From IMG/VR virus record IMGVR_UViG_2974548309_000001, positions 1-64,000 of that record: a stretch of DNA of 64,000 nucleotides. One strand, given 5' to 3'. Below, piece by piece: positions 844-26,526 of this stretch (positions are counted from its first letter, which is position 1; every line of letters begins with the position of its first letter). The notes under the pieces were generated by a model. That model was given only the letters and a program-made list of their open reading frames with translations, was not told the DNA's origin and searched no databases. Both the position numbers and the translations under genes were made by a program. Origin of the DNA: a virus.

Positions 844-856
844 GTACCTTCGGTAC
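844..856 (+). promoter_or_regulatory. Hairpin gtacc-ttc-ggtac followed by tcgTGGAT; candidate vRNAP early promoter
   Basis: 5-bp stem with a 3-nt ttc loop, about 30 nt upstream of the ORF at 886. Same architecture as 57..73. Confidence 0.4.
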
Positions 857-885
857 TCGTGGATGAATAAGCCAGAGGCACTCAA

Positions 886-1197
886 ATGGGAATCATCAGA
901 CCTATCATTGGTTCAATTCCAGAACCATCAACCCGAGTAGTCAACAAGTACAAGGAGCCATACGATGTCTATATCGGCAGAGGTAGTGTATGGGGAAATC
1001 CTTATACAGTTCAAGCATATGGCAGAGAATTATGCATTGCAATGTACGAGCAGTACATACGTCAGAGACTACATCAGGAACCTGACCTATATCTACAATT
1101 ACTTGAGCTTAAAGGTAAGACATTAGGCTGTTTCTGTAAGCCTAAAGCATGTCATGGAGACATACTTATCAAGCTCATAGAAGAGTATTCAAACTAA
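886..1197 (+). CDS. Small early protein with a 'YIGRGSVWGNPY' motif, possibly DUF4326-like
   Basis: Intact 103-aa ORF. The R-x-S-x-WGNP(F/Y) motif is recalled from the DUF4326 family (recalled from memory, unverified). Confidence 0.45.
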   Translation: MGIIRPIIGSIPEPSTRVVNKYKEPYDVYIGRGSVWGNPYTVQAYGRELCIAMYEQYIRQRLHQEPDLYLQLLELKGKTLGCFCKPKACHGDILIKLIEEYSN

Positions 1198-1544
1198 TAC
1201 TCTAACTATCCCAATTCCAGTCAAACATACCATAGACCACTTAGAGACTATCTGGGTGGTCAGGAGAACTAATGTGCATACATTCAAATTCTATTTCTTA
1301 GATGGCTCAGTTGAGCAAGGCAAGGGTACATCTGTATCAGATGCATTCACAAAATTAGGTTATGGAGCAGGTGCTATTGCTTCATTAGATTACTATGAGC
1401 AACTCAATTAGAGAGAGCTAGTATGCTCAGTCAAATAACAGTATTGGAGTGTGTTCAAATTGAATGGGAGAAATATAACTATCTGCCATTCATTGACCGT
1501 TACAAACTAGTCTCACTTATCAAAAGAATACTGGAGAACTAATT

Positions 1545-1943
1545 ATGTCATACAAAGTTGTTAAATCATGGGTTACTGAAGCTGGTCTGAATGCATGTGT
1601 ACTGCTGGTCAATGATGGTTCACATCATTGTGGTTACGTAGAAGTTCCAGCAGCCATTGAGAACAAAAGGTTCGATGGGCATGGAGACGATGATGTATAC
1701 ATCACAGCACATGGAGGTATCACCTATCAGGGAATACCAGACTGGTCTAACGGTAAGACTGTCATCGGCTTTGACTGTGCTCATGCAGGTGACAGGATGA
1801 AATGCCCGGAGAAGTTCAAAGGTACAGTTATGGAGCACTCATTCATCTACACAGATGGAATCTGGAGAGATGAGGAGTACTGTGCTGATGAGTGTGAAGC
1901 TATTGCTGAACAGTTAATTAACTTAGTGCCAAAGGTGAATTAA
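1545..1943 (+). CDS. Hypothetical early protein (132 aa)
   Basis: ORF with GGAG-like RBS context; no recognisable motif. Confidence 0.5.
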   Translation: MSYKVVKSWVTEAGLNACVLLVNDGSHHCGYVEVPAAIENKRFDGHGDDDVYITAHGGITYQGIPDWSNGKTVIGFDCAHAGDRMKCPEKFKGTVMEHSFIYTDGIWRDEEYCADECEAIAEQLINLVPKVN

Positions 1944-2048
1944 ATGGATATCTGGTATACAGAGTTATTCTGGTCTTTGATTGGTGCCATTGTAGGTGGC
2001 ATCACTGTCTATTTAGCTATCAAATATGGGGATAACCATGATGCGTAA
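1944..2048 (+). CDS. Possible small hydrophobic peptide (34 aa, MDIWYTELFWSLIGAIVGGITVYLAIKYG...)
   Basis: Short ORF absent from the ORF track; it contains a single predicted TM helix. Speculative. Confidence 0.2.
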   Translation: MDIWYTELFWSLIGAIVGGITVYLAIKYGDNHDA

Positions 2049-2165
2049 ATCATTAATCCAGGGTACCAAAGCAGACGTAGCTCGCATGAAGAAGAGAGAG
2101 CTGGCTAAGCAGACAACACGTAGTGATAACTGCGCTCCTCGTCGTATTGTTACGTTTAATCATCC

Positions 2166-2543
2166 ATGTATTCAGGAGGTCTCTTGAAAGTAATCGTAGC
2201 CGGTGGAAGGGACTTCACCGACATGGTGTACATGGACTCATGCATCAAGCAATTAGTCATGGATGGCAGCATCTCTGATAATTCAGAACTGGTGTGTGGC
2301 ATGGCTCGTGGTGCTGATATCACAGGGTTTAACCTTTGGTACTATCACTACAAGCTACCTATCCATAAGTTCTACGCTGACTGGAAGTCAGAGCCTAGAC
2401 GTGCAGGATTCATTCGCAATGAAGACATGGGTGATGTGGCTGATGTGCTGGTAGCATTCTGGGATGGTGAATCCCGTGGTACTAAGCACATGATTGACTA
2501 CATGACCAAGCTGGGCAAACCAGTCTTTATCTTCAAGTATTAA
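2166..2543 (+). CDS. SLOG / DUF2493 (YspA-like Rossmann) family protein; likely true start is TTG at 2184 after AGGAGG
   Basis: Motifs 'VIVAGGRDF' and 'VCGMARGADITG' resemble the SLOG/DprA-LOG glycine-rich loops. Confidence 0.5.
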   Translation: MYSGGLLKVIVAGGRDFTDMVYMDSCIKQLVMDGSISDNSELVCGMARGADITGFNLWYYHYKLPIHKFYADWKSEPRRAGFIRNEDMGDVADVLVAFWDGESRGTKHMIDYMTKLGKPVFIFKY

Positions 2544-12020: not shown

Positions 12021-12417
12021 AGTAGTACTGCCGAGCAAAGAAACCATCATGACCGTACTGTCATGGCTGCATAGCGAAAAAGAAGAGCCATACATCAATT
12101 GTGCTCGTTCTTTGACTGCTGCATATGGTTCCAAGCTGGGCATGGAAGGTGGTATGCAGTTTATAGCTGAAATGGCTAAACAAACCATGTCTCCTGAAGT
12201 TGCTGAACGTGCTGCTGTAATCGAACAGATTCAAAAGTACATGCTGGAAGATGGTCTGCCAGAACATATTGTCATGATGGAAACCTCAAAAGCTTTACTG
12301 ATTTTAGCGCGCTTCTACATGCAATTTGGGGTTACTCCTCAGATTGTCCGGCAAGAATCTCAGTACACCATTGATGTTGGTTTACCGGGTATTTATTTCT
12401 TAAACCCGGAAGCCTAA
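12007..12417 (+). CDS. Hypothetical protein (136 aa)
   Basis: Intact ORF. Confidence 0.5.
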   Translation: MEKIEVVLPSKETIMTVLSWLHSEKEEPYINCARSLTAAYGSKLGMEGGMQFIAEMAKQTMSPEVAERAAVIEQIQKYMLEDGLPEHIVMMETSKALLILARFYMQFGVTPQIVRQESQYTIDVGLPGIYFLNPEA

Positions 12418-12432
12418 CGCACTCCGTGCGTT
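12416..12432 (+). promoter_or_regulatory. Stop-anchored hairpin aacgcac-tcc-gtgcgtt (7-bp stem, 3-nt loop), no T-run
   Basis: Shares the architecture 'TAA-stem-tcc-stem' with the hairpins at 17513 and 19797. Confidence 0.4.
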
Positions 12433-12483
12433 GTATAGGAGTCATTTGGCTCCTTATTTTTCATCTGAAAGAGGTAAATAAAA

Positions 12484-12810
12484 ATGTCCAAGCCAGAAAT
12501 CGATTTAAAAAAAATTGATACATTGCGTAATGCATTCAATGCAATGGTAGTATCTCACCAGCCAGTGTCGGTAGGTGATATTGTCATTATCAACCCTGCT
12601 AATGAAGGGTTCTTCCGTTTTCCGACAGTTGACCGTCCGGGTATTGTTACTGAACTGCTGCCCCATCCTAAAAGAGGTTGGGAATTTGAAGACAATGCTA
12701 GTAATACCCCAGCTTCTGCAATGATTTTTGATTGCATTGTTCACATCGTCGATGAAGATGGTGATGTAATCCCATTCCTAATGGATTCCCGCCGTCTCCT
12801 GAAAGTTTAA
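12484..12810 (+). CDS. Hypothetical protein (108 aa)
   Basis: Intact ORF. Confidence 0.5.
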   Translation: MSKPEIDLKKIDTLRNAFNAMVVSHQPVSVGDIVIINPANEGFFRFPTVDRPGIVTELLPHPKRGWEFEDNASNTPASAMIFDCIVHIVDEDGDVIPFLMDSRRLLKV

Positions 12811-12825
12811 CCGGGTAGGTGATGT

Positions 12826-13152
12826 ATGAGACCAATAGCTATTAAGCGTGCTATAGAGCGTGCTTTCAGCGCTAAATTGGTCCCGTTTATCAAAGGTAGT
12901 CCGGGCATTGGTAAATCTGCGATTATTCGTCAGATAGCCAAAGAGTTTAAGTTACTGGTTATTGACCTACGCTTAGGTCAGTGTGACCCAACTGACTTGC
13001 TCGGATTTCCTAATATTGAAAACGGGCGTTCGGTTTATCACCCACCAAAAGATATCCCCATTGTAGGGGATAAAGTGCCTGAAGGTTATAACGGCTGGCT
13101 GCTGTTCCTCGATGAGATGAATACAGCGCCAAAAGCTGTTCAAGCTGCTGCT
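12826..13152 (+). CDS. MoxR-like AAA+ ATPase, exon 1 (Walker A GSPGIGKS, Walker B LLFLDEMN...AVQAAA)
   Basis: The protein terminates exactly inside the conserved 'DE(I/M)N.A.P.VQ.ALLE' block of MoxR ATPases. Confidence 0.65.
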
Positions 13153-14011
13153 TAACATAATAGGCATTCATGGGAGAAATCCCATGTCTAAAGCTACTTA
13201 AAACAGGAAACTCTGACTGTTGTATTAGTTTAATACTGCTTGTACAATAAAAGACAATCTGTTGCTAAGTGGAATTATTATGGAACTCTGGAAAGACATA
13301 GAAAACTTCGAGGGCTTATACCAAGTATCGAACTTAGGTAGAGTAAGAAGTCTAGACCATCTGGTTGCCTGTAAAGGCAATAAAACCAGAATGGTTAAAG
13401 GTATCCTCCGTAAACCATCAATCAACCGAAAAGGGTATGCTCTATATGTATTGAGCAAACCAGAAGGATTGATAGGTATTACTGGACACCAATTAGTAGC
13501 CCAAGCATTTATGCCAGGCTTCCAGAGAGGTACTGAGTTAAACCATATCAATGGTAATAAACTCGATAATGCAATCACTAATTTAGAGCCAAGTAACTCA
13601 TCACATAATCAATTACATGCGGTGAGGACAGGACTTAAACAGAAATCTGGTAAGTCAAAATATCGTAATGTTACTTATGTAACTAACCCACGAGCTAAAG
13701 CTAAGTGGGCTGCAAGTATTCGACACGAAGGTAAATCATCCTATGGATGGAAAACTTTTATGAAGGAAGAAGATGCTGCACGATATGTAGATGAATTACT
13801 TGATTCAATTGGTGATACACAGCGTATCCGTAATTTTCCTAAATGCCCAACGACTATCCCGTGAGGGAGTAGAACCAAGTGGTTCGAAACAGTAGCCCCC
13901 TGAACAGGTAAAGCTGAAGGGGTTGATATAGTCTCCTCTGCATAGAAATATGCAGCAGTTCATAAGAGAACGTATAGTGCTTAACGAACACTGTAGAAGA
14001 TAAGGTATAAG
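13153..14011 (+). ncRNA. Putative group I intron (about 859 nt) carrying an HNH endonuclease ORF
   Basis: The 5' exon ends in U and the intron ends in G. The guide sequence 'UAAUAGGCA' can pair with the exon-1 end (UGCU, P1) and the exon-2 start (UAUUG, P10). 'GAUAUAGUC' is S-element-like. A 'caugggaGAAAucccaug' GNRA hairpin is present. Splicing restores 'AAALLDGMVGQ'. Confidence 0.6.
13280..13864 (+). CDS. HNH homing endonuclease (NUMOD4 'FEGLYQVSNLGRVRS' + HNH + AP2-like tail), intron-encoded
   Basis: Motifs read from the translation. The gene lies wholly between the two ATPase exons. Confidence 0.65.
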   Translation: MELWKDIENFEGLYQVSNLGRVRSLDHLVACKGNKTRMVKGILRKPSINRKGYALYVLSKPEGLIGITGHQLVAQAFMPGFQRGTELNHINGNKLDNAITNLEPSNSSHNQLHAVRTGLKQKSGKSKYRNVTYVTNPRAKAKWAASIRHEGKSSYGWKTFMKEEDAARYVDELLDSIGDTQRIRNFPKCPTTIP

Positions 14012-14695
14012 TTATTGGATGGAATGGTTGGTCAAACCAGACTTCATCCTGACGTATATATTGCAGCGGCAGGTAACAAAGATACTGATGGAGCCATCAC
14101 CACTACAATGAGTAGTGCGACTCTATCACGTATCGTCAATTTGGAACTGGAAGCGAACTTCGATGATTGGAAAATCTGGGCATTGGATAATGCCATCGAC
14201 CATCGCATCCTATCTTTCTTAATGTTTAAGGAAGACCTATTCCATAAATTCAATCCACAGGACCTTAAAAATCCATTCCCATGTCCTCGTACTTGGGACT
14301 TTACTAGCCGTGTTTCTCATGGTTTGGAACTCAGTATTGATAATGACTATGGCATTATCTCTGGGATAATCGGTCCGGGGGCTGCAAGAGAGTTCATTGA
14401 ATACACTTCAATCTATGGAAAGATTAAGACTATCGATGAAATTCTTAAAGACCCAGAAGGCATTGAAATTGAGAACAGACCGGACATTAAGTACGCTTAC
14501 GCTGGTTATGTTGCTTCTAAAATTGACCCTAATAACGGTGCTCAGTTGATGAAGTTTATCAATAAACTGCCGGTTGAATTCCAGATTGTAACTTTAAGTA
14601 GTGCTGTTAAAGCACGGCCTGCCATTGTTCAAGTTCCTGAAATTCAGGATTGGGTGATGAAATACGCTAACGAGTCCGGTGCAGGTATGCTCTAA
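14012..14695 (+). CDS. MoxR-like AAA+ ATPase, exon 2 (sensor region 'VYIAAAGN...' and C-terminal lid)
   Basis: Continues the MoxR motif order after the junction. The track ORF starts at TTG 14015 in the same frame. Confidence 0.6.
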   Translation, partial: LLDGMVGQTRLHPDVYIAAAGNKDTDGAITTTMSSATLSRIVNLELEANFDDWKIWALDNAIDHRILSFLMFKEDLFHKFNPQDLKNPFPCPRTWDFTSRVSHGLELSIDNDYGIISGIIGPGAAREFIEYTSIYGKIKTIDEILKDPEGIEIENRPDIKYAYAGYVASKIDPNNGAQLMKFINKLPVEFQIVTLSSAVKARPAIVQVPEIQDWVMKYANESGAGML

Positions 14696-14706
14696 GGAGA
14701 CCCTGT

Positions 14707-15804
14707 ATGGATAAAGATAAAGCGTTAGATTTAGCAAAAGTAGATTTGTTCTCGATAAGAAAGAATACTTTCATCTGTTCTATGTTCTGCTCGCTTCAGC
14801 TGAACTGGAATGATGATGTACCCACAGCTTGTACTGATGGGTTGAGTATAGAAATAAATCCAAAGTTCTTTATGGATTTATCCAGGCCGATGAGGGTGAC
14901 GCTTCTCGCCCATGAAACCTGGCATGTTGTGTTAAAACACATGTCGAGACTATCGGGAAGAAATCCAACCATCTGGAACTATGCCTGCGACTACTACATA
15001 AATAATATGTTGGATGACGCTGGCTATGCGATGGATTGTGGATTGATGGACCACAAGTACGATGGTATAAGTGCTCCACAAATCTACGACTTACTAATCA
15101 GTAACCCACCACCAATGCCATCTGGTGGATTTGGTTTGGATATTAAGAAGAACCAAGGTCTATCAGATGAACAGGTCAATACCCAGATTGACTCTATGCT
15201 TATCCGAAGCAGTATTGCTGCGTCTCAACGTGGTCAGTACGGCGATATCCCCGGAGACATACGTGCCTATCTGGAGGATTTATTAAATCCAAAACTGCCG
15301 TGGAATGACATTCTCAGAAACTTTGTTAATGAGATGACTCGAAACGATTATTCGTGGAAGAAGGTCAATAGACGTTTTCTTCCAGATATCTATCTTCCTT
15401 CATTAAACTCTGAAGGACTGGAGCATATCATTTTTTATACTGATATTTCCGGTTCAGTTACTGATGCACAGTTCACTGTGTACATCAGTGAAATTCATGC
15501 CATTAAGAAACAGCTGAATCCAAAAAGGATTACTGTCTGTACCTTCGATACGAGGATTCATAATGTGTATGAGTTAGAGGAAGGGGATGATATCAGTCAA
15601 TGTGAATTCACTGGTAGAGGTGGTACCTCATTAGGTTGCGTGTATGACCACGCAGCTAAAGAGAAACCCGAACTGATAGTTGTCTTCTCTGATTTAGACT
15701 GTCGTCAAATGGAGAAGGCACCTGTACCTAATGTTATTTGGGTTTGCCTTGATAACCCAAGAGCAGAAGTTAAGTTCGGACAACTGATTCACGTAAACAG
15801 TTAA
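14707..15804 (+). CDS. vWA-like / putative HExxH metallopeptidase-like protein (DUF2201-type MoxR partner)
   Basis: 'LLAHETWHVVLKH' is an HExxH-type motif. Its size and position immediately after the MoxR ATPase match the MoxR-vWA pairing (from general knowledge of MoxR-vWA systems). Confidence 0.5.
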   Translation: MDKDKALDLAKVDLFSIRKNTFICSMFCSLQLNWNDDVPTACTDGLSIEINPKFFMDLSRPMRVTLLAHETWHVVLKHMSRLSGRNPTIWNYACDYYINNMLDDAGYAMDCGLMDHKYDGISAPQIYDLLISNPPPMPSGGFGLDIKKNQGLSDEQVNTQIDSMLIRSSIAASQRGQYGDIPGDIRAYLEDLLNPKLPWNDILRNFVNEMTRNDYSWKKVNRRFLPDIYLPSLNSEGLEHIIFYTDISGSVTDAQFTVYISEIHAIKKQLNPKRITVCTFDTRIHNVYELEEGDDISQCEFTGRGGTSLGCVYDHAAKEKPELIVVFSDLDCRQMEKAPVPNVIWVCLDNPRAEVKFGQLIHVNS

Positions 15805-22198: not shown

Positions 22199-22467
22199 TG
22201 AGATACGCATTTGTCATATCAAAGCTCATAGCTGTTGAGTACACCATCTTAAGGGATGGACTCCCTACACAGCTACTTGAGTCAAGATACACAGATGTAG
22301 GTATGTCCAGAACTTACTTTCTTGAAGTATCTGCCATTACAGATGAGCTATTTGACTTCATGGCTGAGCTGAAAAGTGAAGGCAGAGAGTATAGACTTAT
22401 GGACCTACTCGATTCTCCGCCAGATTTACCAGAGGTTAACTTAGATAATGAGACACCTGATTTTTGA
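22195..22467 (+). CDS. Hypothetical protein (90 aa)
   Basis: Intact ORF. Confidence 0.45.
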   Translation: MMRYAFVISKLIAVEYTILRDGLPTQLLESRYTDVGMSRTYFLEVSAITDELFDFMAELKSEGREYRLMDLLDSPPDLPEVNLDNETPDF

Positions 22468-24388
22468 ACCAGCTTCAAGATATCCAATTGCTATTCTCAT
22501 TAAACCTCAACAGCTTAGGAAGAAAGAGTTACGGGAACACTACATTGACCCCACTGGTTTAAAGCCAAGTCAATTTATTGCATTCGACCTTGAATATAAT
22601 GGGAAGAAAGCACCCGTAAAGTTGCAGAAAGACTATCTAGCCCAACTCCTACCAGAGCTATGTAATCTACGCACAGAATACGTTCTGTGTTGTGATGCAG
22701 CCTATTTCAAGACTCTAACCAAGCAAACAAAAGCAGAGCCATATTATGGCTACTCTTTGCCATGTGCGCTTAAAGGTTTTGAGCACTTGAATATCATTCT
22801 TTGTCCTAACTATGGCGGTCTGTTCTATGACCCAAATATCCAAGGCAAGATTGATTTAGGCTTACAGGCATTAGTCGGTAAGGTGCAAAAGTCCTATCAG
22901 GAACTTGGACAAGGTATTATCCATTCTGCTTACTATCCTGAGACTGTTGAAGACATTGAATCTTGGTTAGATTCTCTTCATCAATATCCAATATTGGCTT
23001 CGGATATAGAGGCATTTAGCCTCAAGTTCTATACAGCAGGTGTCGGTACCATTGGCTTTGCATGGGACCAACATAATGGTGGAGCATTCGCTGTTGATTA
23101 TACGAATGAACCAGAAAAAGCTAATAGGATAAGGTTGGCTCTTAAGAAGTTCTTTGAAACTTATAAAGGCAAACTGATTTGGCATAACGCTGGTTATGAC
23201 TTAACAGTACTTATCCATCAGCTTTGGATGAAAGGACTGCTAGACCAGAAAGGACTGCTTAAGGGCTTACATACTATGTGTCGTGATTTTCACGATACTA
23301 AGATTGTTACATATCTGGCTACCAATTCATGTGCAGGTAATGAGTTAGGGCTGAAAGCTCAGTCTCATGAGTTTGCTGGAAACTATGCACAGGAAGATAT
23401 TGCTGACATTACTAAAATTCCTATCAAAGAGCTTCTGGAGTACAACTTAGTTGACTGCTTAAGCACTTGGTATGTGGCTGATAAACATGCAGACACAATG
23501 GTCTTGGATGACCAGTGGAATATCTACAATGAGCTAATGCTACCTTCTCTGAAAAATATTATTCAGATGCAATTAACCGGTATGCCTATTGATATGGCAG
23601 AGGTTAAGAAGGTTAAGGCAGATATGGAGAAGGAACGAGATGGGTATCTGAGAGCAATTAAAGCTTTCAGTGTCGTTGATGTTCTGGTTCATAGGTTAAG
23701 GGTTAACCATGTAGAAACACGTAATGCCGGTCTGAAGACAAAGCAAATTACTCTGTCTGATGATGAAACGTTAGCAATAGAATTTAATCCAAATTCAAAC
23801 CCTCAGATGCAGGAACTGTTGTATAGTATTATGGGTTTACCTGTAATCGATTTAACTGAATCCAAACAGCCAGCTACAGGCGCTGATACATTGGATAAGT
23901 TAATCAACCATACAACAAATGAAAGACATAAAAAGATTCTCGAATGCCTTATTAAGTATTCAAAGGTAGAGAAAATCCTATCTGCATTTATTCCAGCATT
24001 TGAAGAAGCACCTTTAGCCGAAGATGGGATGCATTATCTCTTCGGTAGTTATAACTTAGGCGGTACTGTATCCGGTCGTTTGAGTTCATCAAAACCAAAC
24101 ATGCAACAGATTCCATCCTCTAAGAGTCCGTATGCTAAGCCAATCAAGCGATGCTTTAAGGCGGCAAAAGGTAAATTACTTATTGGATTGGATTTCGCTA
24201 GTTTGGAAGACCGTATTTCAGCTCTGACAACCAAAGACCCTAATAAACTTAAAGTGTACATGGGCCATACCGTTTACGAAGTGAACATTAATGGGACTAT
24301 CCATCATATCCGTGATGATGCTACAATCACCTTTGATGGTAAAACCTATACAGGGGAAGAATTTTATGACGCCTTTGGCTCACTTTGA
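22448..24388 (+). CDS. DNA polymerase (family A), N-terminal fragment: 3'-5' exonuclease region through polymerase motif A ('LDFASLEDRISAL')
   Basis: Motif A 'D-x-S-x-x-E-x-R' aligns with Pol I 'DYSQIELR'. The fragment terminates before motif B. Confidence 0.7.
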   Translation: MRHLIFEPASRYPIAILIKPQQLRKKELREHYIDPTGLKPSQFIAFDLEYNGKKAPVKLQKDYLAQLLPELCNLRTEYVLCCDAAYFKTLTKQTKAEPYYGYSLPCALKGFEHLNIILCPNYGGLFYDPNIQGKIDLGLQALVGKVQKSYQELGQGIIHSAYYPETVEDIESWLDSLHQYPILASDIEAFSLKFYTAGVGTIGFAWDQHNGGAFAVDYTNEPEKANRIRLALKKFFETYKGKLIWHNAGYDLTVLIHQLWMKGLLDQKGLLKGLHTMCRDFHDTKIVTYLATNSCAGNELGLKAQSHEFAGNYAQEDIADITKIPIKELLEYNLVDCLSTWYVADKHADTMVLDDQWNIYNELMLPSLKNIIQMQLTGMPIDMAEVKKVKADMEKERDGYLRAIKAFSVVDVLVHRLRVNHVETRNAGLKTKQITLSDDETLAIEFNPNSNPQMQELLYSIMGLPVIDLTESKQPATGADTLDKLINHTTNERHKKILECLIKYSKVEKILSAFIPAFEEAPLAEDGMHYLFGSYNLGGTVSGRLSSSKPNMQQIPSSKSPYAKPIKRCFKAAKGKLLIGLDFASLEDRISALTTKDPNKLKVYMGHTVYEVNINGTIHHIRDDATITFDGKTYTGEEFYDAFGSL

Positions 24389-24905
24389 AAAACGGTACGC
24401 AATTACCGAACAAGGCCAGATTATTAATCTGGCTAACAACCAACCACTCAAACCAACAGAAAATGAAAATGGTTATCTGAAGGTAGGATTGGCAACTGGT
24501 GACGGTGGGCATGTTCAAGAGTTAGTTCACATTCTTGTAGCTAAACACTTCATCCCTAACCCCTATGGCCACCCACAAGTGAACCATAAAGATGGGGTAA
24601 AGGCTAACTGTGCTAAAGACAATTTAGAATGGTGTTCAGCGCAAGGAAATGTACTTCATGCTTTGCAGTATGGATTACGACCCGGCTATATGTCAGCAGA
24701 CGATAAAGAGCAGCATTTAATGAGTGTGCTTGCAGGAGTGCAAGTTAGCGAATTAGCAGCTCAGATAAATCGTAGACCGGAAACGTTACACAAGATGTTG
24801 CGGGAAACTGCGAAACGGTTAGGTCTATCCTCCCAATGGGATGCACAAATGAAGGAGAATCGCCGTAATGCAGCTATTCGAAACCTTGCAAAAATCAACT
24901 CTTGA
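24366..24905 (+). CDS. HNH homing endonuclease inserted between the two DNA polymerase fragments
   Basis: 'NGYLKVGL...HILVAKHFI...VNHKDGVKANCAKDNLEW' is an HNH core. The gene is in a different frame from both polymerase fragments and overlaps each by 23-38 nt. Confidence 0.65.
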   Translation: MTPLAHFEKRYAITEQGQIINLANNQPLKPTENENGYLKVGLATGDGGHVQELVHILVAKHFIPNPYGHPQVNHKDGVKANCAKDNLEWCSAQGNVLHALQYGLRPGYMSADDKEQHLMSVLAGVQVSELAAQINRRPETLHKMLRETAKRLGLSSQWDAQMKENRRNAAIRNLAKINS

Positions 24906-25728
24906 TATTCCCGCTGGGGCTATTGTCACGGTAAAGCGTGTTGGCAACACTCCAGGGTATGATGGTCATTCTCTTAGAGCATTCGCTTATTTCGGCGAGC
25001 ACATGCCAGATATTGTTGATACAGTTTTAAGTATCAATAGCATTGCTGACGTGTACCCAGACTTTAGACAAGATTCTAAAGCACCTACTTTTGCACTTAC
25101 CTATCAAGGTACTTATCACACACTGATGGCTAACTGCGGCTTTTCTGAAGAGAAAGCCAAGACAGTTGAACAGAGATACCATGAACTTTATTGGGTCTCT
25201 GATGAATGGGTTAACGATAAGTTAGCTCAAGCCAGTAGAGATGGTTATATCACTGGTGCATTCGGATTAAGGATTCGTACTCCATTAATCAAAAAAGTTG
25301 TTTGGGGAACCAGTAAAACTCCATATGAAGCTAAAGCTGAAGGCAGAACTGCTGGTAATGCTTTAGGTCAATCATGGTGCTTACTGAATAACCGAGCAGC
25401 CAATGAGTTCATGGAACGAGTCTGGAATTCTCCATATGCAGAACTAATCAAGCCATGTGCTCAGATTCATGATGCTCAGTATTATCTGGTTCCAGATGAT
25501 ATTGAGATTGTGAAATGGGTAAATGACAACTTGGTTGAGTGTGTTCAGTGGCAAGACCATCCCGACATTTATCATGATGAAGTGAAACTTGGAGGGGAAC
25601 TCAGTGTCTTCTATCCATCATGGGCTAATGATATCTCCCTTAAGAACGGAGCTTCTATGGAAGATATTCTGAATACATGTGAAGTTGGATTGGATAAGTA
25701 TCTGCACCCGGAGAAATATAAAAAATGA
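24868..25728 (+). CDS. DNA polymerase (family A), C-terminal fragment (motif B 'RQDSKAPTFALTYQG', motif C 'QIHDAQY')
   Basis: Aligns with Pol I 'RRSAKAINFGLIYG' and 'VHDE'. Confidence 0.7.
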   Translation: MQLFETLQKSTLDIPAGAIVTVKRVGNTPGYDGHSLRAFAYFGEHMPDIVDTVLSINSIADVYPDFRQDSKAPTFALTYQGTYHTLMANCGFSEEKAKTVEQRYHELYWVSDEWVNDKLAQASRDGYITGAFGLRIRTPLIKKVVWGTSKTPYEAKAEGRTAGNALGQSWCLLNNRAANEFMERVWNSPYAELIKPCAQIHDAQYYLVPDDIEIVKWVNDNLVECVQWQDHPDIYHDEVKLGGELSVFYPSWANDISLKNGASMEDILNTCEVGLDKYLHPEKYKK

Positions 25729-26030
25729 CAATTTTACAGTCCCCTATTGATAGTGCTCCTGCCATTTTGCAGGAAGCATCCCGTTGTATTGGTGATAGAG
25801 CAAGCGAGCGTGACCAAGAGTCGGAGCGTTCTATGGCTCGTACTGTAGCTGCATTCAATGCGATGTATAACCTAGGTATGACTGTTGAAGCTGGATGGGC
25901 TTTCATGGTCTTACTTAAAATGTCTAGAAGTGTGGGCGGTGGATTTAAAATGGATGATTATATTGATGGTGCCGCATACTTCGCACTAATGGGAGAAGAG
26001 GCACTTCATGAAAGGAATACCACCAGTTGA
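25725..26030 (+). CDS. Hypothetical protein (101 aa)
   Basis: Intact ORF. Confidence 0.5.
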   Translation: MTILQSPIDSAPAILQEASRCIGDRASERDQESERSMARTVAAFNAMYNLGMTVEAGWAFMVLLKMSRSVGGGFKMDDYIDGAAYFALMGEEALHERNTTS

Positions 26031-26526
26031 ATATTTTCATGAAAATTTAATATACGACCCTTTGACTGGATACTTTTATTGGAAAACCAATAGAGTAAAC
26101 GGAAAGGGTAGAGCAGGTGACCGATGTGAACAGCTGGATAGTAAAGGTTACTATCAAATAAAACTCAATGGAGTTAAATATTTAGCTCATAGGGTAGCAA
26201 TATACATGACTGAAAATGTATGGCCTGATGGTCTTATAGACCATAAAGATAGAATTACTACTAACAATGCTTACCTTAATTTAAGAAAAGCATCTCAAAT
26301 GGAAAATGCATTTAACGCTAAGTTAAATAAAGCAAATTCTAGTGGGGTAAAAGGAGTAAGACTACGTAAAGGCAGATACATAACTTATGTAACTAAAGAT
26401 GGTAAACAGTATTCAGCAGGTTCTTTTTCTACTTTAACTGAAGCTGCACAAGCTGTAGCTGAGTTAAGACAAAAATTACATGGTCAGTTTGCTAATCATA
26501 TTCAATTAGAATTACCACTGGAGTAA
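26008..26526 (+). CDS. HNH-AP2 homing endonuclease
   Basis: 'IDHKDRITTNNAYLNLR' is an HNH core. 'GVKGVRLRKGRYITYVTKDGKQYSAGSFSTLTEAAQA' is AP2-like. It is a paralog of the 5640 gene. Confidence 0.7.
   Translation: MKGIPPVEYFHENLIYDPLTGYFYWKTNRVNGKGRAGDRCEQLDSKGYYQIKLNGVKYLAHRVAIYMTENVWPDGLIDHKDRITTNNAYLNLRKASQMENAFNAKLNKANSSGVKGVRLRKGRYITYVTKDGKQYSAGSFSTLTEAAQAVAELRQKLHGQFANHIQLELPLE

What the first reader, a model, noticed from the sequence alone, without database searches (positions are those of the whole stretch)
13153..14011. Probable self-splicing group I intron with an HNH ORF interrupting the MoxR-like AAA+ ATPase gene
Exon 1 (12826..13152) stops inside the conserved MoxR block '...LDEMNTAPKAVQAAA'. 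Exon 2 resumes at 14012 with 'LLDGMVGQTRL...VYIAAAGN'. Joining 13152 to 14012 is in frame and recreates 'AAALLDGMVG', matching the canonical 'vqsALLEam.E..V' segment. The splice sites obey group I rules: the 5' exon ends in U and the intron ends in G at 14011. Nine nt into the intron, 'UAAUA|GGCA' can pair with exon-1 'UGCU' (P1, U·G at the splice site) and, on its 5' side, with exon-2 'UAUUG' (P10). 'GGGUUGAUAUAGUCUCC' (about 13925) resembles the conserved S element 'AAGAUAUAGUCC' (P7 3' strand). A GNRA hairpin 'caugggaGAAAucccaug' lies near the 5' end. Introns are not a described feature of the N4 family (from memory).
Basis: partly seen in the sequence, partly recalled or inferred. Interest (0 to 1): 0.8.

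Follow-up and report, generated by a model that had tools for sequence, protein, structure and literature searches.

The report
Known group I intron in phage ATPase gene

Summary
The window is Klebsiella phage Pylas (MH899585.1), an N4-like phage of the family Schitoviridae. The gp24-like AAA+ ATPase gene is interrupted at 13153..14005 by an 853-nt group IA2 intron. An I-HmuI-like NUMOD4/HNH endonuclease ORF (13280..13864) sits in the P6a loop.

- **Boundaries:** Intron-less sister phages KpCHEMY26 and MY01 read ...VQAAAYKLLDG..., and the deposited 338-aa protein matches this.
- **Fold:** 14 helices (P1 to P9.2, including the P7 pseudoknot) are 95.7% paired across 12 homologous introns. 50 of 68 pairs show compensatory changes.
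- **Independent model:** A covariance model built without Pylas hits the window once, at 13839..14007 (160 bits, E=2e-42).
- **Rfam:** RF00028 reaches only 22 bits against a threshold of 50, probably because of the 585-nt ORF in P6a.

The 3' splice site, the reconstructed junction and the P10 proposal are wrong. The novelty claim is also wrong: GenBank already annotates "ATPase split by intron", and Fouts 2013 noted gp24 split by HNH genes in Vibrio N4-like phages. Splicing itself has not been tested. This is ordinary and of low interest. A small extra finding is that gp24 carries related introns at three or more sites.

The parts
12826..13152 (+). Exon 1 of the gp24-like AAA+ ATPase (Pylas_035): Walker A GSPGIGKS, Walker B LLFLDE, ends ...VQAAA. 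The last base, U13152, forms the U.G pair in P1.
13153..14005 (+). Group IA2 intron, 853 nt. It starts with an in-frame UAA (13153-13155) and ends in G14005.
   Evidence: Boundaries from intron-less KpCHEMY26/MY01 and an exact match of the spliced 338-aa product to AYP69289.1. Fold.
13149..13166 (+). P1: UGCU|UA (13149-13154) pairs with the internal guide UAGGCA (13161-13166). U13152.G13163 is at the 5' splice site. The loop is ACAUAA.
   Evidence: the U.G column is 12/12 and the helix is 93% paired
13169..13186 (+). P2 hairpin CAUGGGA-GAAA-UCCCAUG
   Evidence: (6 of 7 pairs with compensatory changes)
13193..13198 (+). P3 5' strand GCUACU, which pairs with AGUAGC at 13891-13896
   Evidence: 100% paired, 5 of 6 pairs covary
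13203..13262 (+). P4-P5 domain: P4 ACAGG (13203-13207) with UCUGU (13258-13262); P5 UCU (13212-13214) with AGA (13252-13254); variable P5 extension between them.
   Evidence: MFE recovers P4/P5; ACAG/CUGU in Pylas versus ACGG/CCGU in relatives
13264..13274 (+). P6 (GC, 13264-13265) and P6a (GGAA, 13271-13274) 5' strands. P6a overlaps the annotated ribosome-binding site (13271-13273) of the endonuclease ORF.
   Evidence: Partners are at 13845-13846 and 13836-13839.
13280..13864 (+). Homing endonuclease ORF (Pylas_036, 194 aa; NUMOD4 + HNH_3; I-HmuI-like) in the P6a loop. Its 3' end runs through P6a', P6', J6/7, the P7 5' strand and into the P7.1 loop, where the UGA stop lies.
13836..13846 (+). 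P6a 3' strand (UUCC, 13836-13839) and P6 3' strand (GC, 13845-13846)
13849..13856 (+). R element AACGACUA. The P7 5' strand GACUA (13852-13856) pairs with UAGUC at 13929-13933 (pseudoknot with P3).
   Evidence: (one relative has GACCA/UGGUC, a compensatory change)
13858..13885 (+). P7.1 (CCC-GUGA-GGG, 13858-13867) and P7.2 (GAACC-AAGU-GGUUC, 13872-13885), joined by A-GUA. This is the IA2 signature.
   Evidence: criterion from PMC3428280
13891..13896 (+). P3 3' strand AGUAGC
13897..13922 (+). P8 hairpin (CCCC...GGGG with inner CAG/CUG)
13925..13933 (+). S element GAUAUAGUC, including the P7 3' strand
13938..13995 (+). P9 (13938-13955, GAAA loop), P9.1 (13958-13971) and P9.2 (13973-13995)
   Evidence: (100% paired, most pairs covary)
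14006..14695 (+). Exon 2 of the ATPase. It starts UAU AAG (YKLLDGMVG...) and contains the sensor-1-like AAAGN.

Best explanation
Positions 13153..14005 are a mobile group I intron of subgroup IA2 inserted in the gp24-like AAA+ ATPase gene of Klebsiella phage Pylas, between Walker B and sensor 1.

Inferred mechanism (standard group I chemistry, not tested here):
- The ATPase pre-mRNA folds into the P1-P9.2 ribozyme.
- An external guanosine attacks after U13152, which is held in P1 as a U.G pair with the internal guide 13161-13166.
- The freed exon-1 3'-OH then attacks after the terminal G14005.
- This joins 13152 to 14006 and gives a 338-aa ATPase reading ...VQAAA-YKLLDG...

The in-frame UAA at 13153 stops ribosomes at the intron border. 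The P6a loop carries an I-HmuI-like NUMOD4/HNH endonuclease gene (13280..13864). Its ribosome-binding site lies in the P6a stem and its 3' end doubles as the ribozyme core. By inference, the enzyme cuts or nicks intron-less gp24 alleles during mixed infection, and recombinational repair then copies the intron in (homing).
For: **Shown**
1. Identity and annotation: the window is 100% identical to MH899585.1. Pylas_035 is a 2-piece join noted 'ATPase split by intron', and Pylas_036 is noted 'HNH homing endonuclease encoded in intron'.
2. Precise presence/absence: KpCHEMY26 and MY01 (94-95% identical flanks) carry an uninterrupted 1017-nt gene. The junction gives 13152|14006. The spliced 338-aa product equals AYP69289.1 exactly.
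3. The junction is read through without a gap by PHROG 1297 (residues 3-332, E=2.6e-114). It also aligns to Midasin AAA 'LDELNLAPTDVLEALNRLLDD'.
4. Fold across 12 homologous ORF-deleted introns: 68 pairs in 14 helices, 95.7% paired versus 33-41% for slid partners. 50 pairs have double changes. The covariation score is 0.571 versus at most 0.117 for slid partners. 0 of 500 shuffles reach these values. U.G at the splice site is 12/12, and all 12 introns end in G.
5. Energy-only folding recovers P2, P4, P5, P7, P7.1, P7.2, P8, P9, P9.1 and P9.2.
6. Rfam RF00028 aligns the R, S and P9 elements at E=0.0042 in a local scan. A covariance model of the 3' domain from 10 non-Pylas introns hits the window once, at 13839..14007 (159.9 bits, E=2e-42).
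7. The 3' 170 nt are 74-78% identical to DNA-polymerase introns of T7-like phages. That family was reported as self-splicing IA2 introns by Bonocora & Shub 2004, cited through PMC3428280.
8. Endonuclease: NUMOD4 (57.5 bits), HNH_3 (26.9 bits) and I-HmuI 1U3E (E=1.1e-7). The identical protein occurs on 33 contigs.
9. Polymorphism: wild Pylas-like contigs carry this intron with or without a second intron. Many 338-aa intron-less alleles also exist.
Against: - No RNA or enzymatic data exist for Pylas, and the genome announcement does not mention the intron.
- Rfam RF00028 is far below its gathering score on the genomic sequence (22 versus 50 bits). It gives nothing in whole-window scans. None of the ORF-containing homologues reaches 50 bits either.
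- The helix set was drawn on the Pylas sequence, which inflates the percent-paired measure. The compensatory changes in the other 11 sequences do not depend on that.
- P10 is only a weak 3-bp possibility.
- The endonuclease has N where I-HmuI has its metal-binding Asp next to the catalytic His (alignment: LNH versus VDH). Its activity is therefore assumed, not shown.
- A TTG at 14015 preceded by AAGG could in principle start an independent exon-2 polypeptide.
Confidence: 0.93

Rival explanations
1. The insertion is a homing-endonuclease cassette that splits the ATPase gene into two separately translated polypeptides (109 aa and about 226 aa from TTG 14015), which assemble without RNA splicing. 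Any ribozyme-like sequence is a relic.
For: Gene callers and several GenBank records annotate the pieces as separate CDSs (Pollock, JA-1, pVco-5). A TTG at 14015 with an AAGG 9 nt upstream exists. In the same window the DNA polymerase gene appears to be split by an HNH gene with no detectable ribozyme.
Against: About 270 nt of non-ORF sequence is conserved as a complete, covarying group I core across phages whose exons and endonucleases have diverged. U at -1 and a 3'-terminal G are invariant. The AAGG is the conserved intron 3' end. The split would fall between Walker B and sensor 1 of a single AAA+ module.
Confidence: 0.04
2. The intron is, 13153..14011, with splicing 13152|14012 giving AAALLDG.
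For: 14011 is a G and the join is in frame.
Against: All intron-less homologues retain YK (TATAAG) at this point. All eight same-site introns end ...GG|TATAA. The deposited protein contains YK, and the 336-aa product is absent from the collection. The covariance model's 3' end aligns to 14005|14006.
Confidence: 0.01
3. It is a decayed, splicing-defective intron, so the ATPase is a pseudogene in Pylas.
For: No experimental splicing data. Rfam is sub-threshold.
Against: Every core helix is intact. The endonuclease ORF is intact and identical on 33 contigs. Near-identical intron-bearing genomes recur in independent samples. gp24 is conserved across the family.
Confidence: 0.02

Closest known systems
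[quoted passage not shown]
   Same: The 3' domain (P7-P9.2) is 74-78% identical in sequence. The helix set is the same, with P7.1/P7.2 joined by GUA. The endonuclease ORF sits in P6a and overlaps the core. U at -1 and a terminal G are shared.
   Different: The host gene differs (gp24 ATPase versus DNA polymerase), as does the phage family. In Yep-phi the endonuclease is unrelated to the Pylas one (no blastp match at E<=10; annotated 'endonuclease VII' in related Yersinia phage records). In Pylas it is NUMOD4/HNH_3. The 5' half is much more diverged.
HNH-split gp24 genes of Vibrio N4-like phages JA-1 / VCO139 (Fouts et al. 2013, Virol J 10:165, PMC3670811) and Escherichia phage Pollock
   Same: The insertion site is the same (…VQAAA|YK…). 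The ribozyme is homologous. The endonuclease is homologous, at 61-62% aa identity in Pollock, 12VC501 and pVco-5.
   Different: The Vibrio versions have enlarged P7.1/P7.2. JA-1 carries a shorter, differently annotated ORF. Pollock has an additional ORF-less intron in the Walker A codons. The 2013 paper only suggested an intron.
Phage T4 td intron with I-TevI
   Same: It is a phage IA2 intron in a conserved gene. The endonuclease ORF lies in the P6 region, with its 3' end forming core helices. An in-frame stop follows the 5' splice site, and the ORF's ribosome-binding site lies in a stem (PMC3073962).
   Different: The endonuclease is GIY-YIG rather than HNH. The host gene differs. The T4 case is experimentally proven.
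SPO1 DNA polymerase intron endonuclease I-HmuI (PDB 1U3E)
   Same: The Pylas ORF aligns over residues 4-110 (E=1.1e-7), with the NUMOD4-type N-terminus and the HNH motif.
   Different: The match is about 30-35% identity over the N-terminal half only. The target gene differs. Nicking activity is not tested for Pylas.

Membership tests
Group I intron (Rfam RF00028) | Conserved core helices P3-P8 (P4-P6 and P3-P9 domains) supported by covariation | tested here: met
   P3, P4, P5, P6, P7 and P8 are 92-100% paired across 12 homologues, with compensatory changes in most pairs. Slid controls are 33-41% paired.
Group I intron (Rfam RF00028) | R and S sequence elements forming the P7 pseudoknot (guanosine-binding helix) | tested here: met
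   AACGACUA at 13849-13856 and GAUAUAGUC at 13925-13933. P7 is 100% paired, and one relative shows GACCA/UGGUC.
Group I intron (Rfam RF00028) | 5' exon ends in U, paired as U.G with an internal guide sequence in P1 | tested here: met
   U13152.G13163. The column is U.G in 12/12 sequences. Intron-less alleles have G or A at this synonymous position.
Group I intron (Rfam RF00028) | Intron ends in G (omega G) | tested here: met
   G14005, using boundaries set by intron-less alleles and the deposited protein. All 12 homologues end in G.
Group I intron (Rfam RF00028) | Score at or above the family's gathering threshold (50 bits) | tested here: not met
   22 bits, E=0.0042, in a 1-kb scan; nothing in whole-window scans. 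The 585-nt ORF in P6a probably splits the match; ORF-containing homologues also score 29-36 bits. An ORF-deleted construct could not be submitted to the tool.
Group I intron (Rfam RF00028) | P10 pairing between the guide sequence and the start of the 3' exon | tested here: inconclusive
   Only AUA (13157-13159) with UAU (14006-14008) can be drawn. It is not consistently conserved among homologues (sequence inspection).
Group I intron (Rfam RF00028) | Guanosine-dependent self-splicing | not testable with these tools
   No RNA data. Related T7-like phage introns are reported as self-splicing (Bonocora & Shub 2004, via PMC3428280).
Subgroup IA2 | Extra helices P7.1 and P7.2 between P7 and P3', linked by G-U-A (criterion as stated in PMC3428280) | tested here: met
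   P7.1 at 13858-13867, A-GUA at 13868-13871, P7.2 at 13872-13885. Both helices covary, and the GUA linker between P7.1 and P7.2 is visible in all aligned sequences.
HNH homing endonuclease (I-HmuI-like) | HNH catalytic domain with NUMOD-type DNA-binding module, above curated thresholds | tested here: met
   NUMOD4 57.5 bits (cut-off 23.4); HNH_3 26.9 bits (cut-off 24.8). I-HmuI 1U3E E=1.1e-7. PHROG 59 and 1492 'HNH endonuclease'.
HNH homing endonuclease (I-HmuI-like) | Presence/absence polymorphism of the element at one precise site among close relatives | tested here: met
   KpCHEMY26 and MY01 lack it precisely. Many contiguous 338-aa alleles and 33 contigs with the identical endonuclease exist.
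HNH homing endonuclease (I-HmuI-like) | Site-specific cleavage or nicking of the intron-less allele | not testable with these tools
   Needs purified protein and a KpCHEMY26 gp24 target.
MoxR/AAA_5-type AAA+ ATPase (host gene) | AAA+ module with Walker A, Walker B and sensor 1, continuous across the splice junction | tested here: met
   AAA_5 27.3 bits (cut-off 22) and AAA 21.8 bits (cut-off 21.2) on the spliced protein. PHROG 1297 ATPase matches residues 3-332. The Midasin AAA alignment spans the junction. MoxR-specific models (AAA_3, bpMoxR) are below threshold, so 'MoxR-like' is only approximate. The next gene encodes a DUF2201/VWA-like metallopeptidase.

The most novel reading that the evidence does not exclude
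The gp24 ATPase gene of N4-like phages may be a multi-site hotspot for one family of IA2 introns.
- There are at least three insertion sites: the Walker A codons GSPGI|GKS, VQAAA|YK, and PCP|RTW.
- Zero, one or two sites are occupied in near-identical wild Pylas-like genomes.

This would imply repeated transposition of the ribozyme between genes and phage families, with endonuclease swapping. The synonymous non-U base at -1 in intron-less alleles may act as a barrier to productive invasion.
Probability: 0.4. Interest if true: 0.35.

Novelty: already known. Interest (0 to 1): 0.15.

Why it matters
It matters little for discovery. The element belongs to a textbook class, and it is already annotated with the correct join in the public record of this phage.

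There is practical value in three points:
- The correct splice junction is 13152|14006.
- Rfam's group I model misses ORF-bearing phage introns at its gathering threshold. Split genes in phage genomes, such as the gp24 pieces annotated as separate CDSs in Pollock, JA-1 and pVco-5, should therefore be checked by comparison with intron-less relatives.
- gp24 of Schitoviridae offers a compact natural system, with three sites and variable occupancy, for studying intron homing and ectopic spread.

Tried and rejected
- **Rfam at gathering threshold on the whole window:** no hit. Whole window at E<=0.05: no hit. Only a 1-kb local scan gave RF00028, at 22 bits.
rejected by intron-less alleles and an exact protein look-up.
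- **Co-conversion tract around the junction versus KpCHEMY26/MY01:** none visible. The region from -75 to +18 is identical except for the -1 base.
- **Pylas genome announcement:** no mention of an intron.
- **Bonocora & Shub 2004 and 2009:** not held in the library, so they are cited only through PMC3428280.
- **IMG/VR pattern scan for the P3-J3/4-P4 motif:** only 4 loci.
- **Other copies of this intron family in the window:** none found with model R1.
- **The DNA polymerase 'intron' annotated in the same genome:** no ribozyme signal.
- **Group II intron or intein:** not pursued. The insert starts with a stop codon, carries group I R and S elements, and has no reverse transcriptase or intein blocks.

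Full report
**Identity of the window.** The region 12400..15100 is 100% identical, at the same coordinates, to Klebsiella phage Pylas MH899585.1 (Schitoviridae, Humphriesvirinae, Pylasvirus), an N4-like podophage. The GenBank record already annotates three relevant features:
- Pylas_036 (13280..13864) as 'HNH Homing Endonuclease encoded in intron'.
- The next gene as a DUF2201/VWA-like metallopeptidase (N4 gp25-like).

The genome announcement itself does not mention the intron.

**Checking the observation.**
- The ORF 12826..13155 encodes 109 aa ending ...LDEMNTAPKAVQAAA, followed by TAA.
- A 194-aa ORF at 13280..13864 matches Pfam NUMOD4 (57.5 bits) and HNH_3 (26.9 bits).
- The downstream ATPase reading frame continues to 14695.

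**Boundaries.** Sister phages KpCHEMY26 and MY01 have 94-95% identical flanks and an uninterrupted 1017-nt gene. Across the insertion point they read GCTGCTGC(G/A) TAT AAG TTA TTG GAT GG, which translates to ...VQAAAYKLLDGMVG.

In Pylas, TATAAGTTATTGG begins at 14006. The intron is therefore 13153..14005 (853 nt), ending in G14005. Exon 2 starts at 14006, not 14012.

An exact-sequence look-up confirms this.

The corrected junction is read through without a gap by two independent comparisons:
- PHROG 1297 (residues 3-332, E=2.6e-114).
- A Midasin AAA module, 'LDELNLAPTDVLEALNRLLDD' against 'LDEMNTAPKAVQAAAYKLLDG'.

The insertion lies between Walker B (LLFLDE) and the sensor-1-like AAAGN.

**Is it a group I intron?**

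*Rfam.* Rfam gives no hit at gathering threshold on the window, and none at E<=0.05 on the whole window. A 1-kb local scan gives RF00028 at 13783..13955 with 22 bits (threshold 50) and E=0.0042. That alignment covers the R element (CAACGACUA), the S element (GAUAUAGUCU) and the P9 GAAA hairpin.

*Homologues.* I collected homologous introns for comparison.
- The same element sits at the same codon (GCU|UAA...AUAGGCA) in Escherichia phage Pollock, Vibrio phages 12VC501, pVco-5/7, JA-1, VCO139 and JSF3, and three IMG/VR contigs.
- A related element sits at a second gp24 site (PCP|RTW) in Gamaleyavirus NAN33P5 and Pseudoalteromonas phage pYD6-A. pYD6-A annotates it as a join.
- The 3' 170 nt are 74-78% identical to DNA-polymerase introns of T7-like Yersinia phages and Acinetobacter phage APK44.

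*Covariation.* I removed the ORFs, aligned 12 introns (A2), and drew 14 helices on the Pylas sequence: P1, P2, P3, P4, P5, P6, P6a, P7 as a pseudoknot, P7.1, P7.2, P8, P9, P9.1 and P9.2. Counting the pairs gave the following:

| Measure | Observed | Control |
|---|---|---|
| Cells forming a standard pair | 95.7% | 33-41% with 3' partners slid by 1-3 columns |
| Pairs with compensatory double changes | 50 of 68 | 9-17 with slid partners |
| Covariation score | 0.571 | at most 0.117 with slid partners |
| Shuffles reaching the observed values | 0 of 500 | n/a |

The splice-site U.G is invariant (12/12), and every intron ends in G.

*Caveat.* The structure was drawn on one of the aligned sequences, which favours the percent-paired measure. 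The double changes in the other 11 sequences do not depend on that.

*Energy-only folding.* This independently recovers P2, P4, P5, P7, P7.1, P7.2, P8, P9, P9.1 and P9.2.

*Independent model.* A covariance model of the 3' domain, built from 10 introns without Pylas (A3/R1), hits the 64-kb window exactly once. The hit is at 13839..14007, full length, with 159.9 bits and E=2e-42. Its 3' end aligns on GG|UA.

*Subgroup.* P7.1 and P7.2 joined by G-U-A is the criterion for subgroup IA2 given in PMC3428280, and it is met here.

**Anatomy and likely mechanism.**
- P1 pairs UGCU|UA (13149-13154) with UAGGCA (13161-13166).
- The intron opens with an in-frame UAA. PMC3073962 describes this as usual for bacterial group I introns, because it keeps ribosomes out of the core.
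- The endonuclease ORF sits in the P6a loop, the same location as in the PhiI and W31 introns (PMC3428280).
- The ORF's annotated ribosome-binding site (13271-13273) lies in the P6a 5' strand.
- The ORF's last 29 nt form P6a', P6', J6/7, the P7 5' strand and half of P7.1, comparable to I-TevI in the td intron (PMC3073962).
- The protein aligns to I-HmuI (1U3E, E=1.1e-7). It is 61-62% identical to the endonucleases of the same-site introns in Pollock, 12VC501 and pVco-5, 45-47% identical to those at the second gp24 site, and 33% identical to that of APK44.
- Yep-phi carries an unrelated endonuclease in the same ribozyme: it gave no blastp match to the Pylas protein at E<=10, and the corresponding ORF is annotated 'endonuclease VII' in related Yersinia phage records.

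Splicing by the standard two-step guanosine-initiated pathway, and homing by cleavage of intron-less alleles, are inferences from family membership. Neither is shown here.

**Mobility evidence.**
- Intron-less 338-aa alleles are numerous: the 90% cluster has 117 members, mostly contiguous genes from assemblies.
- The identical endonuclease occurs on 33 contigs.
- Within -75..+18 nt of the junction, the only difference between Pylas and the intron-less alleles is the last exon-1 base. It is T in Pylas and in all eight same-site intron-bearing alleles, G in KpCHEMY26 and A in MY01. This fits the U.G requirement.
- No co-conversion tract is visible.

**Comparison with what is known.**
- Fouts et al. 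2013 (PMC3670811) reported that HNH genes split the gp24, DNA polymerase and gp43 homologues in Vibrio N4-like phages, and suggested introns.
- Katharios et al. 2017 (PMC5746245) reported a group I intron in the td gene of an N4-like Vibrio phage.
- The Pylas and pYD6-A GenBank records annotate the gp24 joins.

**Rivals.**
- A split gene translated as two polypeptides is conceivable, since a TTG at 14015 follows AAGG. It does not explain a fully conserved, covarying ribozyme core.
- A decayed intron is unlikely given intact helices and recurrence in independent samples.

**Verdict.** It is an ordinary member of a well-known class and is already annotated. Interest is low.

Noticed in passing
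window 22448..25728 (HNH ORF 24366..24905): GenBank annotates the DNA polymerase A gene (Pylas_049) as a join around an HNH endonuclease, noted 'non-conserved homing endonuclease intron'. However, the three ORFs (22448..24388, 24291/24366..24905, 24868..25728) overlap and leave no non-coding room for a ribozyme. Neither Rfam nor model R1 finds a group I signal there. It looks like a free-standing endonuclease gene splitting the polymerase into two ORFs rather than an intron.
   Followed up: partly
window 26008..26526: A third HNH endonuclease gene (Pylas_052, annotated '(intron)') lies just upstream of thymidylate synthase. Its context was not examined.
   Followed up: no
L003 (Escherichia phage Pollock KM236242.1) 852..1204: Pollock's gp24-like ATPase carries a second, ORF-less group I intron (Rfam RF00028, 101 bits, above threshold) inside the Walker A codons GSPGI|GKS. 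GenBank annotates the three exon pieces as separate CDSs rather than a join.
   Followed up: partly
L022 about 1788..2130 and L017 about 1248..2130 (metagenomic Pylas-like contigs): Wild genomes 96-98% identical to Pylas carry the Pylas intron plus an extra group I intron at the Walker A site, corresponding to Pylas 12909|12910. It is ORF-less in L022 (Rfam 94.7 bits) and carries a 185-aa HNH_3 ORF in L017-L019 and L021. Near-identical phages therefore carry 0, 1 or 2 introns in gp24.
   Followed up: partly
L008 (Gamaleyavirus NAN33P5) 1368..2232; L004 (Pseudoalteromonas phage pYD6-A) 1349..2214: A related IA2 intron with a related NUMOD4/HNH endonuclease (45-47% aa identity) occupies a different gp24 site, PCP|RTW. 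That corresponds to about window 14285 in Pylas, where Pylas has no intron.
   Followed up: partly
window 13152: The last exon-1 base (a synonymous third position of Ala) is T in every intron-bearing allele, but G in KpCHEMY26 and A in MY01. It is the only difference within -75..+18 nt of the junction.
   Followed up: partly
This was evidently copied from the Pylas annotation, although this genome has no intron.
   Followed up: yes
NC_049444.1 / NC_049467.1 (RefSeq copies): In the feature lists under the matches to window 12400..15100, the RefSeq copies show one more 'HNH endonuclease' than the GenBank copies and no 'metallopeptidase'. This suggests the DUF2201/VWA metallopeptidase gene downstream of the ATPase was relabelled 'HNH endonuclease'.
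   Followed up: no
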